NCBI GenBank assembly: GCA_965285935.1
Contig: OZ260667.1
Span: forward strand, 39,928,001 to 39,992,000
Origin: Ophelia neglecta
Lineage: Eukaryota
Direction: 5' to 3'
Length of the DNA stretch: 64,000 nt
Position numbers: made by a program. This document shows, in pieces, positions 21,001 through 27,000 of this stretch (position 1 is the stretch's first letter; each line of letters opens with the position of its first letter).

Positions 21001-24000
21001 GAACAAAAGGGTAGCTCCTAAATGTAAACCAAGCATGTGAAAAAGTCTAATGTTTTACAGGCTTGTTCTTCCTGTCCAGAAAACTAAATTTCTTGAAGGG
21101 TGTACAATATTAAATCTTTATTCCAAAGTACCCTAATCCATACTGGCGGCTTATCTTTAATCGTCCATCTTACATGGACGAAACTGAATATGAATGTGTT
21201 TAAGATTCTATTTAGGAGGAGAGTCTATTCAAACCTGATCCAGTCCATGATGAGTAGTGTTTCCGCTTCCTGGTGATTGTTCTCATAGTAAGTCTTATAC
21301 TGATCAGGAAAGTTACGGTTCAAATCTCTTCCATTGGCATTAGCTCTGCCCGTCACACCCTGGGCGTCACCTTAGGAATCCAACAGTCCCAATGAATTCA
21401 TGAGTTAATTTGAAAGTCCAATCTTATTATACCAGGTATGCACTAGTGAGCTGTAGAGAGGATGAGTATCTAAGGGATGCACAACCATGACAGGGGTCAC
21501 TCTGGCAAAAATTTGTATGAGAAAAAATATCCCATGGAAAAGTTCTATGAGATTTACCTGCTTATTTGTTTTTGATTTGGAAAAGGCCTACCAATAAACA
21601 TTGTGGAGTGCTTAAGTATAGTATATTGAAGTTGCAAGACAGAGTAATATTTTACGGCATACAAACTTTTGACATGTGATTATGGGAATTTCAATGCGAT
21701 AATATCGGGATATCACAGCCTAGAGTGATCCCTGCCATTGCCCTCTCCTTAAATGATTATTTCAACATTTGGTATTTTATTCCCACCTACCTTCATGAGC
21801 ATGTGCATAGCCATCTGGATTCATCGTTGGCATGAGATGGATTCTGGTCTGATTCACCATTAGGCTGATCAAAGCATCCTTCCCATAGTTCTCACACAAG
21901 AGCTGGGCCAGATTTACCAGCAGGACCCGACCTACTACTTCATTGCCATGCATATTAGCTATGTATTTGAACTCCGGCTCACCTGGAAACAGACATTTTG
22001 AAAAAACTTAATGCTATTGTAATCCACAATTTTTGCAAGCAAGAAAATTTCACAGATCACAATATTATTTAACCACATAGTTTCTACTTGACATTTCTTC
22101 CATGAGCAGGAGAGAAAGTTTTTATCTAACTTTCTATGGAAAGTTAGGCTATATGGGAAATCATACATTGGAAATTCTGCAAGCAGGACTTTTCTGCTAA
22201 TTTTCTCAATTATCTTGAAATTTGAGAAAATTTTTGCTTGCAAAATGTCCTGATTAGAGTCGTACAAGCTCTGTGCTGACAATAAAATATACAACAGGAA
22301 CAAAGCACCTGCTCTGCTCTTTGGTCACCATCTTAACAGTGATTGTCCAGTTGTGCTGAATATGTGAATATAATTCAGTCTGTGCCTTTAGCACTAGTCC
22401 AAAGCACGCAGACTGGTGTACGGGGAAACTTTTAAACTAAGACCACCGATGGGACTGGAGAATACTGGTCTGATTTTGGAGGTGACCACTTTACACAGGT
22501 TAATTACCATTTAAAGTATACAGCAACATCGTCATTTTGTTGGTCTGAATTGACAGGTGGTCTGATTATAGAGGTGGTCTTTAAGGCGGGTGTCACTGTA
22601 CATATATTTATTCATGCTAGTGTAGATTCAAATGCACTAGCCCCGACTGGACCAGTGCCTGTTCAGTACAGACACATAAAACCTGGAATATATCAAAATG
22701 TCCTCATTTCCCAATTTACTTTTCTGAAATATATGAATTAATTCATGAAGCAAAGGCTACAGCTTTTTGGGTTAAATTAAGACTTGTGTCAAATATTTTG
22801 GACTAGTAGCATTTCAATTCTACTAGCCTGAATGACCGGTGGGTACAGTATATATATATATTTGGCACAGTCAGAGTGCCTCAAGTGCAAGCGTATGTAG
22901 TTTCATGCTATTACTGTGTTATTTGATGAGAGTAAAAAAAAATTTAAAGGATCAAAGAAAATTTTATTCCTAAAATGAAACCATATCTTCTGAACTGATG
23001 GACTTAGTGGTAATTGTTTTCAACAAGTTTCAATGTATTTTTAACCCTTCCCCTACAGAGGCTTCAACTAGTAACTCACTACTTCTGGAATTGAATCCAG
23101 AAGGAAATGGTTAATGTGATACAATAATACTGCAAAATTACAAGGGGAATCACAAGGTTACTACCTTCGCATAAAGGAAGGAGTTAGTGCTAACCTGGCT
23201 CATGTTTGCCGGGATTGTCCGAGATCTCGATTACCCACAAGTCCCTGCTCTTTACCGACTTGCCGATGGAATACAGTCTGGCTATATTTGGATGGGCATT
23301 GGCAATCTCTTTCAAAGCCGCTGTCAGTTCTTCATGGCTTAAGTGTTTACTATAGGTGGGTTCCTTAAACATATCATAACAAATGTATATCAGACCAGTA
23401 AAGTAATCTTGGATACCCCCGGTACATATATATATAGAGTAATACCAAGGGTGTTCCTTTTCAAATTGAGCTTGTGGGCACTTTCTGTACAGCAGAGAGG
23501 GAAAATGACAAGTGCCACAGTCTGTATCCTTAGCAAGGGGCTTGAGTTGCCGGCAATTAGTGTAATTACAGATTGATTAAATCTCAGTCGCCAGCAGCAA
23601 AGAAACACCCTTAATAGCAAAATACAGGACATGTGCTGGAACAAACTTTTAGTGGAAATAATCAAGCCATTTTCTAATAAAACATTGCCCGTGGATTACC
23701 TTAAATGATATTGAATTGCGATGTGCATGGTCTTTCAACTTGTTGATAATGTCAACCAAGCTCTCGGCAGGGTGTTTAGGATCAAGATCACTAGCAAAAG
23801 GATATGGTGATGTTGAACCGATTGGCGCTGGAGAGGTGGACTGAGATATTTTGGCAGTGGGAGATAACCGTGGTGTGCTTGAGCTTAGGTTGTTGGATGG
23901 CACTACATTCTCATTGTCATCTTCAGAAGTCTCATAGTTACTGAAAGATAAGCTGCCTATTAGGGATCATTTTGACCTTGAGGCCTATTTCTCATAATAC

Positions 24001-27000
24001 AAAAAATACTGAACTTTGGCAGTTAATGCTATACATGCAGGCATAGAGAAAGGGCAATACATAATAATTATGGCATATGATGCAAATACAATACATTTAG
24101 GAGACAATTCAAGTGACACAGTTATTTAACACAGTTAAACCATTTCCTAAACAGATTATATATCTATTACATATTTTTTCCCGACTCCAACAGTTTCCAT
24201 GAGGGAAGGGTTAAACATATCACAAATTTACTGGGGTACACACTGTAACCATCAAGACTGCAATGCAGTAAAATGTAATATGCTATTTTCCCAATGTTAT
24301 CTTTTTGTTAGAATGACTCCTTTTAGAATATCTTATTTAGAACAGTAGAAAAAACATACTTGTTTACTTCATCAAACCATAACACTTACTGAAGATAACA
24401 TATAAATGAAAATAACCTAACTTTAAACCTAACTTGACTTTCTCGCCTCATTGAGAATGGCAGAAAGTTTTGCATATCGCCTGAAATCACATTTCGAAGA
24501 GCAGAAGCTTTTTTTGGAGCATCCGGTGATGCAAAGTCCAATATTTGTGGGAACGGTGCTTCGGATCTTAGTTGTAAAAGGGGTTTGACTCTCTGCTGTC
24601 GCCGTTGACGAAGGAGAAATTCAAGCACAGAGTCTCAGCAAATCAGAGACCAGCATTTTGAGGTGTGGTCCCTGTCAGCCAATAAAAGCTTCTGCATGTG
24701 AAAACGTGATTTCATACCAGCTGCAAAAGCCATTCTCAATGAGGCATGAAGGAGTACTAAAACCCGACCATCCATCATTGTACGGTAAAAAATCAGTAGG
24801 TGTTCTACCAGAGCAATGTACAGGAAAATGTTTGGAATAAACAATAATCTTGCATTGTTTTGTAGCTCAATACTAAATAATTTTGACATAAAAGTTAGGT
24901 TTCCTAGTTTTGGTTTTAGTAAAAATCTACTAGGTATTTCACTGCCCGGTCTGGTAATGTTCAAACTATTCCCGACTGCAGATCTGGAAAAGTTCATACC
25001 TTACTGGACCATTGGTCTGGTAATTTCAAACTTTACCATTGGTCTGGTAAGTTCAAAATTTACCCAACCATTGGTCTGATGCGTTGAACCACCCACTGGC
25101 CTGGTAAGTTCAACCCCACCTGACCATTTGTCTGGTTAACCACAATCTTAAAGTTACAAACTGTAATAACCAAGGTAACAAGATTAAAGGTATATTCCGA
25201 AAGAAAGGTATATACGCACGATAATACGATATATACCACAATATAATATTTACTGTATAAATTTAAAACAGCATAGGAAATGCATATAACGTCCTCTTTT
25301 ACTATTTACATGATTTATGCTTACCTCCTTTTTCTCCGTGTAAGCTTTTGAAAGCTTGGAGTATATATAAATGTTCGCATATACATTATGGAGTATGGAC
25401 CAAACACATTTAATATGACATTCAATTTATCTTTATTCTGAATTAAGCCCTGATAATTAAACAACCATCTATAATAATAATATTAAATAATAATACTAAT
25501 AATAATAATAATGATAATAATCAACAAAATATTTCATATTTGATACATCACAAATAATATCAGCTTAAAGTACCCACCCATAAGGAAGCTCGCCATATTC
25601 ATCCCCAACTTGATTGAACACTTTCTTTTCTCTTACAAGGGGCTCTGAACCAGGCTCAATATTTTCTCGCTGTTCTAAGTGAGGACCTTTCTCTCCAAAT
25701 TTAAACAGTTCAAAGGAAACAAGAGTAGGACCCTTACTCTCCACATAAATATTACTTCTGGTAATAGGCAAATATCTGGAACCATGTGGAAAACATTATT
25801 AGTTAAATGTAATAATTATCAGCCACGAGTACTTAATACATAAATCATTTCTTTTGAATCATCAATGACATACAGGTAATGTAAATTATATTGTATACAA
25901 AAGTTGGCTATATTTTGATCATGAAGAAGACAGTGAATTACACTGAATTTTAATAAGATTAATCCTACCCTGGGGCAGTTACAGTGACTGTGTAAATGCC
26001 TGGAGTAAGTAGGCGCCAGTAATCCCCATGTTTTGCTGATGTCACATTATGATTTATTCCATACACAGATACAACAGCTCTACTGATTGGCTGACCTGTC
26101 TCGGCATCACGAATAAAACCTTTTATCCCTTTGTGTACCTAAAAGTAGTATAACGGCTTTAGATATTTTTCAAACTGCAGAATATCTAAATGTGTCTGAT
26201 CATTAACAGAGTGGTCTCCACGACAGTTAACTACTGTAAACCGGGAATTGTTCGTGGCCGTTTTAATTTTGCTATGTTCGCGATAAGGGTCCAACCGCGA
26301 AATTAATAGGAGGGAATTTAAAAACCCTAATCTGAAGATCAGTGGCCTGATCTGGTCCGCCATTGCTGTTACAAATATAGCGCTGAAATCAGCGTGCTGA
26401 TGGACAGGCTGTGTAGCTTCATTGATTGCACTTACAGTGCGATGATAGAGACTTGTAGAGAGGTGCAAAAACATAGCCAGTAATCTTATGTGGTGGTTTT
26501 AGTTGGTTTTATGACTGATTTAATTAGGCGGCGTGAGAAACTGACGACAAAGCGAATGATATTCAGCTTCCTTACACAATTGTTGTTCATAGCTACACTT
26601 CAAAGACTGGCTTAATTTGGTTTAATTGAGTTTTATTTTTTTATATTTGAGGAAATTGTATTTTGGCTTCTCTTTATGACAGTTGTTGTAGTTTCAGACG
26701 TGAGGACTCGATCACAGTTTTTGCTTTGCAGGTGCGATTCCTTCCTCGCACCTCGCTAATAAACTTGCTTGTGAGCACAATTACAATCGGCAAATTCCGG
26801 GTCCCGGTAACATTGAATTGTAATCAAGTCTCCGCAGGCGGGCTCCCCACGCTGGCCGTGTTGCACACGGCGCGCTTGGCGCTACGCTCGAGACGTCTCT
26901 CAACGACACATGATGTAAGGGCATAGCGCTCTGGAGAGCAAACAAAATGGCGGCCATTTTCGGCAACTCGGATCGCTAAATTAAAACAACGCGAATAGAC

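What the first reader, a model, noticed from the sequence alone, without database searches (positions are those of the whole stretch)
23941..25775. Possible three-way isoform switch controlling release of CPD domain 1
Seen: one intron between the domain-1 and domain-2 coding regions contains an in-frame stop plus AATAAA just past a weak donor, a frame-preserving microexon encoding RRKR, and a large strand-specific RNA structure. Established: Drosophila silver/CPD makes soluble short forms, and Aplysia CPD has four domains. Inference: this one intron could choose between a soluble domain-1 enzyme, a furin-sheddable full-length form and an uncleavable membrane form. That would be a splicing-coded control of where prohormone-trimming activity ends up.
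Basis: partly seen in the sequence, partly recalled or inferred. Interest (0 to 1): 0.75.

Follow-up and report, generated by a model that had tools for sequence, protein, structure and literature searches.

The report
Linker intron of four-domain carboxypeptidase D
The intron between the first two enzyme units of a four-unit carboxypeptidase D gene holds a believable early poly(A) site, a doubtful RRKR mini-exon and some repeat DNA, but nothing shows that they work together as a switch.

Summary
The minus strand carries a four-repeat carboxypeptidase D (CPD) gene. Its intron 25577-23941 splits the domain-1/domain-2 linker.

(1) Read-through of the donor stops after 4 codons, and AATAAA lies 140 nt into the intron. 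That pair is common: 4 of 22 introns have it. The poly(A) context is unusually good, though: only 4 of 174 AATAAA sites in the window score as high.

(2) A 30-nt frame-preserving AG..GT segment (25354-25325) encodes RRKR. Its donor is strong (rank 7 of 820 decoys), but its acceptor is no better than a random AG (rank 474 of 794). The donor-plus-motif coincidence is rare (1 of 200 shuffles, 1 of 54 decoy donors).

(3) The "structure" is repeat DNA. A 311-nt inverted repeat folds equally on both strands. A 5-unit minisatellite folds better on the sense strand.

No tool here reaches transcripts or orthologues, so whether any element is used is untested. Most likely this is an ordinary linker intron. 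The only credible functional arm is a soluble short form like those of insects (about 0.35). A coupled three-way switch is about 0.03.

The parts
10757..32163 (-). Four-repeat carboxypeptidase D-like gene, from the candidate start codon to the stop after the membrane-anchor/tail exon. Domain 1 spans 32163-25578, domain 2 23363-18367, domain 3 about 17593-15325, domain 4 about 14766-12220.
   Evidence: Pfam run exon by exon: Peptidase_M14 2.5e-67 for ORF 31249-32178, further M14 and CarboxypepD_reg hits in each repeat. tblastn of the domain-1 exons against the window. PDB best hits 1h8l 4.9e-71 and 3mn8 2.5e-66.
25578..25775 (-). Exon (198 nt) holding the last strands of regulatory domain 1 and the start of the linker. 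Its acceptor at 25775 is weak (2.3 bits).
   Evidence: Junction choice. The exon start aligns with the paralogous exon starts of domains 2 and 3, with 4 invariant columns of 36. No Pfam or PDB hit on its own. PWM scores.
23941..25577 (-). Intron (1637 nt) splitting the domain-1/domain-2 linker; phase 2.
   Evidence: 25578->23940 is the best frame-compatible GT-AG pair: 6.7 bits against 4.0 for the next. No transcript evidence.
25572..25577 (-). Donor GTGGGT of the linker intron, weak-ish.
   Evidence: 6 of 9 consensus matches. 5.0 bits, 4th weakest of 22.
25565..25567 (-). In-frame TAA reached after 4 read-through codons.
25471..25521 (-). Trinucleotide (ATA/ATT) microsatellite, U/A-rich, upstream of the hexamer.
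   Evidence: TRF 16.7 copies. A similar run lies at 27070-27114.
25399..25437 (-). Candidate intronic poly(A) signal: AATAAA 25437-25432, CA 25417-25416, G/T-only 10-mer 25408-25399.
   Evidence: Only 4 of 174 AATAAA sites in the window reach this downstream score.
25325..25354 (-). Candidate 30-nt frame-preserving microexon (pseudo-exon) with RRKR codons at 25338-25327. A 144-nt variant starts at 25468.
   Evidence: Acceptor -1.8 bits (30-nt form) or 1.2 bits (144-nt form).
25319..25324 (-). Strong decoy donor GTAAGC after the RRKR codons.
   Evidence: 8.9 bits, rank 7 of 820 intronic GT decoys. It is the only one of 54 strong decoy donors in the window with RX[KR]R just upstream.
25003..25144 (-). 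Minisatellite: 5 units of 25-32 nt, each partly self-complementary. It folds into serial hairpins, better on the sense strand.
24440..24750 (.). Imperfect inverted repeat (foldback, MITE-like). Arms 24440-24517 and 24679-24750, with a 161-nt spacer.
   Evidence: 50-nt arms 76% and 22-nt arms 91% complementary; 73-nt self-match at 75%; equal folding on both strands; the only inverted repeat of 40 nt or more in 10000-33000.
23700..23940 (-). Next exon (241 nt), a Ser/Thr/Pro-rich linker. Its acceptor at 23940 is weak (1.7 bits).
   Evidence: No Pfam hit.

Best explanation
This is an ordinary intron in the long, unconserved linker between CP domain 1 and CP domain 2 of a four-domain carboxypeptidase D gene. 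In the main transcript it is removed by the 25578->23940 junction (inferred). That gives a membrane-anchored protein in which domains 1 and 2 keep the catalytic motifs and domains 3 and 4 do not.

The three flagged elements are incidental:
- The stop and AATAAA are what an AT-rich intron gives.
- The RRKR segment is a pseudo-exon made by a purine run next to a chance strong donor, with no usable acceptor.
- The predicted RNA structure comes from repeat DNA: a foldback inverted repeat and a minisatellite, probably of transposon or slippage origin.

No element is coupled to another.
For: Gene identity and intron position.

Stop plus AATAAA is not distinctive: 4 of 22 introns on the strict definition, 11 of 22 on the lax one.

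The donor is within the range of the other donors: 6 of 22 score 6/9 or less, and it is 4th weakest of 22.

The microexon acceptor is below the median of decoy AGs (rank 474 of 794). The intron holds 87 frame-preserving open AG..GT segments.

The inverted repeat folds equally on both strands, with 8 G.U pairs on the sense strand and 12 on the antisense.

Minisatellites are common in and around this gene: four other arrays in 10000-33000.

The mean 200-nt folding energy of this intron (-41.8) is like that of the eight other introns tested (-26.6 to -43.4). Its sense bias goes with the highest G+T content, 0.531, tied with one other intron.

Rfam gave 0 matches at gathering score in the window, and only 7 chance-level matches (E 0.84-8.8) in 23800-25800. 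The intron ORFs have no Pfam family, 0 of 5.
Against: The poly(A) context is the best in the window at normal spacing (4 of 174 reach the score, the other three at longer spacing).

The intron is the one place where a stop would leave a complete domain 1 plus regulatory domain.

Insect CPD genes do make one-domain short forms (preprint passages).

A strong donor right after in-frame RRKR is rare: 0 of 500 and 1 of 200 shuffles, and 1 of 54 decoy donors.

The splice sites around this intron are all weak (25775: 2.3 bits; 25578: 5.0; 23940: 1.7), as is usual for regulated exons.

No second copy of the inverted repeat or of the minisatellite unit was found in the 64 kb. The transposon origin is therefore inferred, not shown.
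Confidence: 0.48

Rival explanations
1. Two-way choice. Splicing at the weak-ish donor competes with cleavage and polyadenylation at the intronic site about 160 nt downstream. When the poly(A) site wins, the mRNA ends in the intron. The protein is then a 461-codon secreted enzyme: signal peptide, CP domain 1, regulatory domain, part of the linker and a three-residue read-through tail. It has no anchor, like the short forms of insect CPD. When splicing wins, the four-domain membrane form is made. The RRKR segment and the repeats play no part.
For: AATAAA, then CA at +14, then a G/T-only 10-mer at a normal distance; only 4 of 174 sites in the window score as high. The stop comes after 4 codons. 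The donor is 4th weakest of 22. At 1637 nt this is the second longest of the 22 modelled introns. The product length, 862+143+170+198+10 nt = 461 codons (arithmetic), is close to the 435-residue chain 3mn8. Short one-domain and long membrane forms are reported in Drosophila and, PCR-validated, in Tribolium (preprint 10.64898/2026.08.05.742955, passages and section 5).
Against: This rests on a single sequence, with no transcripts and no orthologues. Stop plus AATAAA occurs in 4 of 22 introns. I designed the downstream-element score after seeing the site. The same preprint reports no sign of multiple CPD isoforms in two hymenopterans, so short forms are not universal. From general knowledge (recalled), a poly(A) site this close to a bound donor is often suppressed.
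Confidence: 0.35
2. The 30-nt segment 25354-25325, or its 144-nt variant from 25468, is a real alternative exon. It adds ten residues, including RRKR, to the exposed linker. A furin-type convertase in the secretory pathway could then release domain 1 from the anchored remainder.
For: The segment preserves the frame and is open. Its donor ranks 7 of 820 decoys. Strong donor plus in-frame RX[KR]R: 0 of 500 shuffles for this intron, 1 of 200 for all introns, and 1 of 54 strong decoy donors on both strands of the window, in the matching phase. Only 4 RX[KR]R hits (3 loci) occur in three frames of 14,267 intron bases. The purine run resembles a splicing enhancer (recalled).
Against: The acceptor scores -1.8 bits (rank 474 of 794 decoy AGs), and the 144-nt variant 1.2 bits, against a minimum of 5.8 for real acceptors on the same model. 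The thresholds and the motif class were chosen after the fact. Arg and Lys codons are purine-only, and donors favour purines upstream, so the two features are not independent. The 144-nt variant would contain the AATAAA. No conservation or transcript data.
Confidence: 0.07
3. One reading: one intron chooses among a soluble form (poly(A) site), a sheddable form (microexon in) and an uncleavable form (microexon out), with the intronic RNA structure setting the choice.
For: All three sequence elements exist in the order donor, poly(A) signal, microexon, hairpin array, inverted repeat. The hairpin array is sense-biased.
Against: This needs both rivals above to be true, plus a role for the structure. 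The largest structure is not strand-specific. It loops out only 161 nt in the middle of the intron, 575 nt beyond the microexon donor, so it brings no splice sites together (from coordinates). No Rfam family. Covariation cannot be tested.
Confidence: 0.03
4. Something else. The modelled junction may be wrong, with another donor/acceptor pair or a further linker exon. Or the inverted repeat may have a function of its own, such as a double-stranded RNA editing substrate or a small-RNA precursor.
For: The linker has no homology constraint (no Pfam or PDB hit for exons 25775-25578 and 23940-23700). Alternative frame-compatible pairs exist, for example 25637->23930 at 4.0 bits. The inverted repeat is the only one of 40 nt or more in 23 kb of the gene, with z -8.0.
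Against: 25578->23940 is the best pair under both scoring schemes. No Rfam microRNA or other family comes near its threshold. The arms are only 76-91% complementary.
Confidence: 0.07

Closest known systems
Short and long isoforms of insect carboxypeptidase D (Drosophila silver/svr; Tribolium cpd)
   Same: A multi-domain CPD gene gives a short soluble protein with one CP domain and a long form with a transmembrane anchor and tail (preprint 10.64898/2026.08.05.742955, passages and section 5). The candidate site here would cut at the same architectural point, after domain 1 plus its regulatory domain. The product would be of similar size: 461 codons against the 435-residue chain 3mn8.
   Different: The insect long forms have three CP domains; this gene has four. 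Here there is no transcript evidence at all.
Secreted-versus-membrane switches by competition between a weak 5' splice site and an upstream poly(A) site (immunoglobulin mu heavy chain, soluble receptor isoforms). Recalled from general knowledge, not checked in any call.
   Same: Same logic as the two-way rival. A suboptimal donor is followed by a poly(A) site. Use of the site removes the membrane anchor encoded downstream.
   Different: In those systems both mRNAs are documented and the regulators are known. Here only the sequence layout is seen.
Aplysia four-domain carboxypeptidase D (recalled: Fan et al. 1999, DNA Cell Biol). Not found in the held library.
   Same: Four tandem CP-like repeats with a C-terminal anchor, as in this gene.
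   Different: No Aplysia sequence was available to any tool, so identity or orthology was not tested. The organism of the window was not determined.
Foldback / miniature inverted-repeat elements (MITE-like)
   Same: A 311-nt non-coding unit bounded by imperfect inverted arms of about 72-78 nt, lying in an intron and folding equally on both strands.
   Different: No clear target-site duplication (by eye) and no second copy in the 64 kb. Genome-wide copy number is not testable here.
Conserved neural microexons of bilaterians (recalled)
   Same: 30 nt, frame-preserving, strong donor, weak acceptor, inserting charged residues into a surface or linker region.
   Different: Real microexons are defined by transcripts and deep conservation, and neither is testable here. 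This acceptor is at random level.
Soluble versus membrane-bound vertebrate CPD. Seen only as a reference-list title (Song and Fricker 1996) in PMC11266112.
   Same: CPD activity exists in both soluble and membrane-bound forms.
   Different: From recall, the vertebrate soluble form keeps all the domains and arises by proteolysis near the anchor. It is not a release of domain 1 alone.

Membership tests
Carboxypeptidase D (multi-domain M14B) | Tandem Peptidase_M14 domains, each followed by a transthyretin-like regulatory domain | tested here: met
   Four M14 + CarboxypepD_reg units found exon by exon. Paralogy shown by tblastn.
Carboxypeptidase D (multi-domain M14B) | Closest solved relatives are CPD/N/M-type (M14B) enzymes | tested here: met
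   1h8l (carboxypeptidase gp180 residues 503-882) 4.9e-71; 3mn8 2.5e-66; CPN 1.4e-61; CPM 2.5e-59; 9j6z carboxypeptidase D 4.1e-54.
Carboxypeptidase D (multi-domain M14B) | C-terminal transmembrane anchor and cytosolic tail | tested here: inconclusive
   ORF 10760-11074 has a run of about 21 hydrophobic residues followed by basic residues and an acidic tail. Only sub-threshold Pfam hits to TM-type families. No TM predictor was run.
Carboxypeptidase D (multi-domain M14B) | Zinc-binding and catalytic motifs kept in the active domains | tested here: inconclusive
   The motif positions HxxE, NRNF and LHGG are kept in domains 1 and 2 and substituted in 3 and 4 (alignments; ORFs). The assignment of these motifs to catalysis is recalled.
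Intronic-polyadenylation short isoform (as in insect CPD short forms) | Canonical hexamer with a downstream G/U-rich element at normal spacing | tested here: met
   AATAAA 25437-25432, CA at +14, G/T-only 10-mer at 25408-25399; only 4 of 174 sites score as high.
Intronic-polyadenylation short isoform (as in insect CPD short forms) | In-frame stop between the donor and the poly(A) site, leaving a complete domain | tested here: met
   TAA after 4 codons. The exon upstream ends after the regulatory domain.
Intronic-polyadenylation short isoform (as in insect CPD short forms) | Transcripts that end at the site | not testable with these tools
Intronic-polyadenylation short isoform (as in insect CPD short forms) | Conservation of the site in orthologous introns | not testable with these tools
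   The only open genome collection holds bacteria and archaea.
Alternative microexon | AG..GT borders, length a multiple of 3, open in the gene's phase | tested here: met
   25354-25325, 30 nt, phase 2 in and out.
Alternative microexon | Recognisable acceptor (pyrimidine tract, YAG) | tested here: not met
   -1.8 bits, rank 474 of 794 decoy AGs, with A at -3. The simple count score is 10, equal to the minimum of the real acceptors.
Alternative microexon | Inclusion in transcripts and conservation | not testable with these tools
   As above.
Furin-type cleavage site | R-X-K/R-R in a lumenal, exposed segment | tested here: inconclusive
   The motif is present in the translated segment. Exposure is inferred from the unconserved Ser/Thr/Pro-rich linker. 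Whether the segment is ever translated is unknown.
MITE / foldback element | Terminal inverted repeats, small size, no coding capacity | tested here: met
   Arms 24440-24517 / 24679-24750, 311 nt in all. No Pfam family in the overlapping ORFs.
MITE / foldback element | Target-site duplication | tested here: inconclusive
   The flanks read share at most three bases. No clear duplication.
MITE / foldback element | Many copies in the genome | tested here: inconclusive
   No other copy in the 64-kb window. The rest of the genome is not available.
Structured regulatory RNA | Structure specific to the transcribed strand | tested here: not met
   For the large inverted repeat: -124.4 against -123.8 kcal/mol. 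The minisatellite region alone is sense-biased, -102.3 against -77.5.
Structured regulatory RNA | Match to a described family, or covariation among relatives | tested here: not met
   Rfam: 0 matches at gathering score and 7 sub-threshold chance-level matches. Covariation is not testable without relatives.

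The most novel reading that the evidence does not exclude
A single linker intron of a four-domain carboxypeptidase D encodes three fates for its first catalytic domain. It is secreted alone through an intronic poly(A) site, released by a convertase through an RRKR microexon, or kept on the membrane. The sense-biased hairpin array downstream of the microexon tunes which signal is seen. The enzyme that trims basic residues after convertase cleavage would then itself be deployed by a convertase site that splicing can add or leave out.
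Probability: 0.03. Interest if true: 0.7.

Novelty: new member of a known kind. Interest (0 to 1): 0.27.

Why it matters
As it stands this is an ordinary annotation result. A four-domain CPD gene has a long linker intron that carries repeat DNA.

The part worth following is the candidate intronic poly(A) site. If used, it would show that the short-soluble/long-membrane split of CPD, documented in two insects, also exists in a four-domain CPD outside insects and is coded at the same architectural point. That would bear on how peptide-trimming activity is shared between the secretory granule or extracellular space and the trans-Golgi network.

The RRKR segment would matter only if transcripts include it. 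Splicing-coded addition of a convertase site to the very enzyme that works downstream of convertases would be a neat regulatory loop, but the evidence for it here is a statistical coincidence without an acceptor.

Tried and rejected
- Rfam on the whole window (0 matches at gathering score) and on 23800-25800 at E up to 10 (7 matches, all far below their gathering scores). No known RNA family.
- Pfam on the five longest intron ORFs. 0 of 5 have a family, so no transposase or hidden exon.
- Self-BLAST of the intron against the window. Only the intron's own inverted repeat and a trinucleotide run near 27070-27114 matched, so a transposon origin could not be shown by copies.
- PDB search with exon 25774-25580 alone: 0 hits at E up to 10.
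- Literature for four-domain or Aplysia CPD: only unrelated mentions, and 0 papers for the phrase 'Aplysia carboxypeptidase D'.
- Literature for CPD shedding by furin: nothing relevant among the 12 listed of 591.
- Literature for how svr short mRNAs end: nothing in the 12 listed of 38.
- A search for molluscan CPD was badly framed and gave nothing usable.
- Whole-intron strand asymmetry (-439.8 against -382.4). Rejected as evidence of a designed structure, because another intron shows a larger bias the other way (+9.2 per 200 nt) and this intron has the highest G+T content, tied with one other intron.
- Exon skipping of the 198-nt exon. It would preserve the frame but would delete the last strands of the regulatory domain, so it was not pursued.
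- Not tried: the search for related loci and the DNA search on genome contigs (prokaryotes only, irrelevant to an animal gene), search_dna_similar (phages, plasmids, E. coli), structure prediction and the protein atlas (the family is already clear).

Full report
WHAT THE WINDOW HOLDS

The window is 64,000 bases with no N and G+C of 0.32-0.43. I did not take it for human. The minus strand between about 32.2 kb and 10.8 kb carries a gene with four carboxypeptidase repeats, whereas a paper in the library describes the human CPD protein as having three (passage in PMC9925722). The organism was not determined.

All protein searches were run exon by exon. Lengths of spliced products were obtained by arithmetic only.

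Pfam results, exon by exon:
- Domain 1: Peptidase_M14 at 2.5e-67 for open frame 31249-32178, continued in 27107-27328, with CarboxypepD_reg in 25968-26138.
- Three further M14 + regulatory units lie downstream.

tblastn of the domain-1 exons against the window lines up the paralogous pieces of domains 2, 3 and 4. The best solved relatives are 1h8l (carboxypeptidase gp180 503-882; 4.9e-71) and 3mn8 (2.5e-66), then carboxypeptidases N and M. The last coding frame, 10760-11074, has a hydrophobic run followed by a basic and then an acidic tail.

Domains 1 and 2 keep the HxxE, NRNF and LHGG motif positions. Domains 3 and 4 have substitutions there. The catalytic meaning of these motifs is recalled.

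THE INTRON

I modelled 22 junctions from GT-AG, reading phase and homology. The finding's span, 23941-25775, is one exon (25775-25578, 198 nt) plus the following intron (25577-23941, 1637 nt, phase 2).

The start of the exon aligns with the paralogous exon starts of domains 2 and 3. Only 4 of 36 columns are invariant, so the support is weak. This fits the last strands of the regulatory domain. The rest of the exon and the next exon (23940-23700) have no Pfam or PDB match and are Ser/Thr/Pro-rich linker.

With a splice-site matrix trained on the other 21 junctions, 25578->23940 is the best frame-compatible pair (6.7 bits; the next is 4.0). All three sites here are weak:
- acceptor 25775: 2.3 bits
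- donor 25578: 5.0 bits (4th weakest of 22)
- acceptor 23940: 1.7 bits (2nd weakest of 22)

ELEMENT 1: STOP AND AATAAA

Read-through gives four codons and then TAA. AATAAA starts 140 nt into the intron.

This pair is not distinctive:
- 10 of 22 introns stop within 6 codons.
- 8 of 22 have AATAAA within 200 nt.
- 4 of 22 have both; 11 of 22 qualify on a laxer rule.
- The hexamer occurs 74 times on this strand of the window.

The context is better than usual. A CA lies 14 nt after the hexamer, followed by a 10-mer made only of G and T at 25408-25399. Among 174 AATAAA sites on both strands, 4 reach that score. Two of those four are overlapping hexamers of one locus, and the three others have their block 39-49 positions along the scale on which this one is at 23. 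I designed the score after seeing the site, so it is a lead rather than a test.

The product would be 862+143+170+198+10 nt = 461 codons, counting from the ATG at 32163.

ELEMENT 2: THE RRKR SEGMENT

25354-25325 is bounded by AG and GT, is 30 nt long, is open in phase 2, and carries RRKR at 25338-25327. A 144-nt variant starts at 25468.

The 22 introns hold 714 frame-preserving open AG..GT segments of 9-150 nt, 87 of them in this intron. Two carry RX[KR]R, and both are these. In three frames of 14,267 intron bases the motif occurs 4 times, at 3 loci.

Dinucleotide-preserving shuffles that yield at least one such segment:

| Filter | This intron | All 22 introns |
|---|---|---|
| No site-quality filter | 15 of 300 | 47 of 100 |
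| Simple thresholds set at the observed values | 0 of 300 | 3 of 100 |
| Donor at or above 8.8 bits | 0 of 500 | 1 of 200 |

Empirically, of 54 decoy donors at or above 8.8 bits on both strands of the window, 1 has the motif within 12 open codons upstream. It is this one, and it is in the matching phase.

Against this:
- The donor is strong (8.9 bits, rank 7 of 820 decoy GTs), but the acceptor scores -1.8 bits (rank 474 of 794 decoy AGs). The 144-nt variant scores 1.2 bits. The weakest real acceptor on the same model scores 5.8.
- Arg and Lys codons are purine-only, and donors favour purines upstream, so the two features are not independent.
- Shuffling erases natural purine tracts.

I read the segment as a pseudo-exon with an unusual coincidence, not as a demonstrated exon.

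ELEMENT 3: THE RNA STRUCTURE

Two things fold.

(a) An imperfect inverted repeat, with arms 24440-24517 and 24679-24750 and a 161-nt spacer.
- It folds at -124.4 kcal/mol (z -8.0) on the sense strand and -123.8 (z -6.1) on the antisense, with 8 and 12 G.U pairs respectively.
- It is therefore a DNA-level palindrome, not a strand-specific RNA.
- It is the only inverted repeat of 40 nt or more in 10000-33000.
- It has no second copy in the window, and I saw no clear target-site duplication.
- A foldback or MITE-like origin is inferred.

(b) A five-unit array of 25-32-nt units at 25003-25144.
- The region 24941-25240 folds into serial hairpins at -102.3 (z -5.7) on the sense strand against -77.5 (z -3.0) on the antisense.
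- This part is strand-biased.
- Minisatellites are frequent in and around this gene: 10300-10368, 11228-11556, 17115-17368 and 32559-32958.

The intron as a whole is not more structured than the other eight introns tested: mean 200-nt energy -41.8 against -26.6 to -43.4. Its sense bias (-5.0) goes with its G+T content (0.531, tied for highest with one other intron). One other intron is biased more strongly the other way, at +9.2.

Rfam gives nothing at gathering score and only chance-level matches below it. The intron ORFs have no Pfam family. The inverted repeat lies 575 nt beyond the segment's donor and 500 nt before the acceptor. It loops out only its own spacer, so no simple geometry links it to site choice.

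WHAT IS KNOWN

Passages and section 5 of preprint 10.64898/2026.08.05.742955 state the following:
- Drosophila svr gives long three-domain membrane forms and short forms.
- Tribolium has a PCR-validated short one-domain isoform and a long isoform.
- No sign of multiple isoforms was seen in two hymenopterans.

Its table S2 and figure S2 are supplements and were not seen. They may show how the short mRNAs end.

A passage of preprint 10.1101/551853 speaks of membrane-anchored and free isoforms. A title in a reference list names soluble and membrane-bound vertebrate CPD. The four-domain Aplysia CPD is recalled only: 7 papers hold both 'carboxypeptidase D' and 'Aplysia', and none of those I looked at describes it. 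The exact phrase is in 0 papers.

WHAT COULD NOT BE TESTED

Usage and conservation could not be tested. The one open genome collection holds prokaryotes, and the annotated collections are phages, plasmids and E. coli. No orthologous intron, transcript or second copy of the repeats could therefore be examined.

VERDICT

| Reading | Probability |
|---|---|
| Ordinary linker intron whose three elements are incidental | 0.48 |
| Two-way splice-versus-poly(A) choice giving an insect-like soluble domain-1 form | 0.35 |
| RRKR segment is a used exon | 0.07 |
| Something else (wrong junction, or an independent role of the inverted repeat) | 0.07 |

The kind of regulation proposed in its credible arm is already known for CPD in insects. 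I file the finding as a new member of a known kind, of modest interest until transcripts are looked at.

Noticed in passing
window 48567-50794 (+): Two long open frames of a BTB/BACK/Kelch-type gene (BTB 1.7e-26, BACK 6.2e-20, weak Kelch motifs).
   Followed up: partly
window 62121-62966 (-): Exons of a gamma-glutamyltranspeptidase gene (6.3e-31 and 3.1e-06).
   Followed up: partly
window 43185-43688 (+): An exon encoding the seven-transmembrane part of a class C (7tm_3) receptor (2.7e-23).
   Followed up: partly
window 17115-17368, 11228-11556, 32559-32958, 10300-10368: Minisatellites in introns of, and just upstream of, the CPD gene: 36 nt x 7, 102 nt x 3.3, 104 nt x 3.8, 33 nt x 2.1. The 36-nt array reads as a long open frame of repeated peptide with no Pfam family.
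   Followed up: partly
window 17593-12220 (-): CP domains 3 and 4 of the gene carry substitutions at the HxxE, NRNF and LHGG motif positions that domains 1 and 2 keep. They are probably inactive repeats; the meaning of the motifs is recalled.
   Followed up: partly
window 25578-25775 and 23940 (-): The exon before the intron is 198 nt, a multiple of three. Both its acceptor (2.3 bits) and the next acceptor (1.7 bits) are among the weakest of 22. Skipping it would keep the frame but would remove the end of the regulatory domain.
   Followed up: partly
window 2829-3572, 8277-8534, 9557-9817, 53624-53912, 63555-63747: Several open frames on both strands are rich in runs of Pro or Gly (C- or G-runs in the DNA), scattered through the window. 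They may be copies of one dispersed repeat. Not compared with each other.
   Followed up: no
window 44944-45279 and 45875-46099 (-): AT-rich region (G+C 0.32) with open frames that look by eye like remnants of a retroelement. No Pfam family at E up to 0.01.
   Followed up: partly
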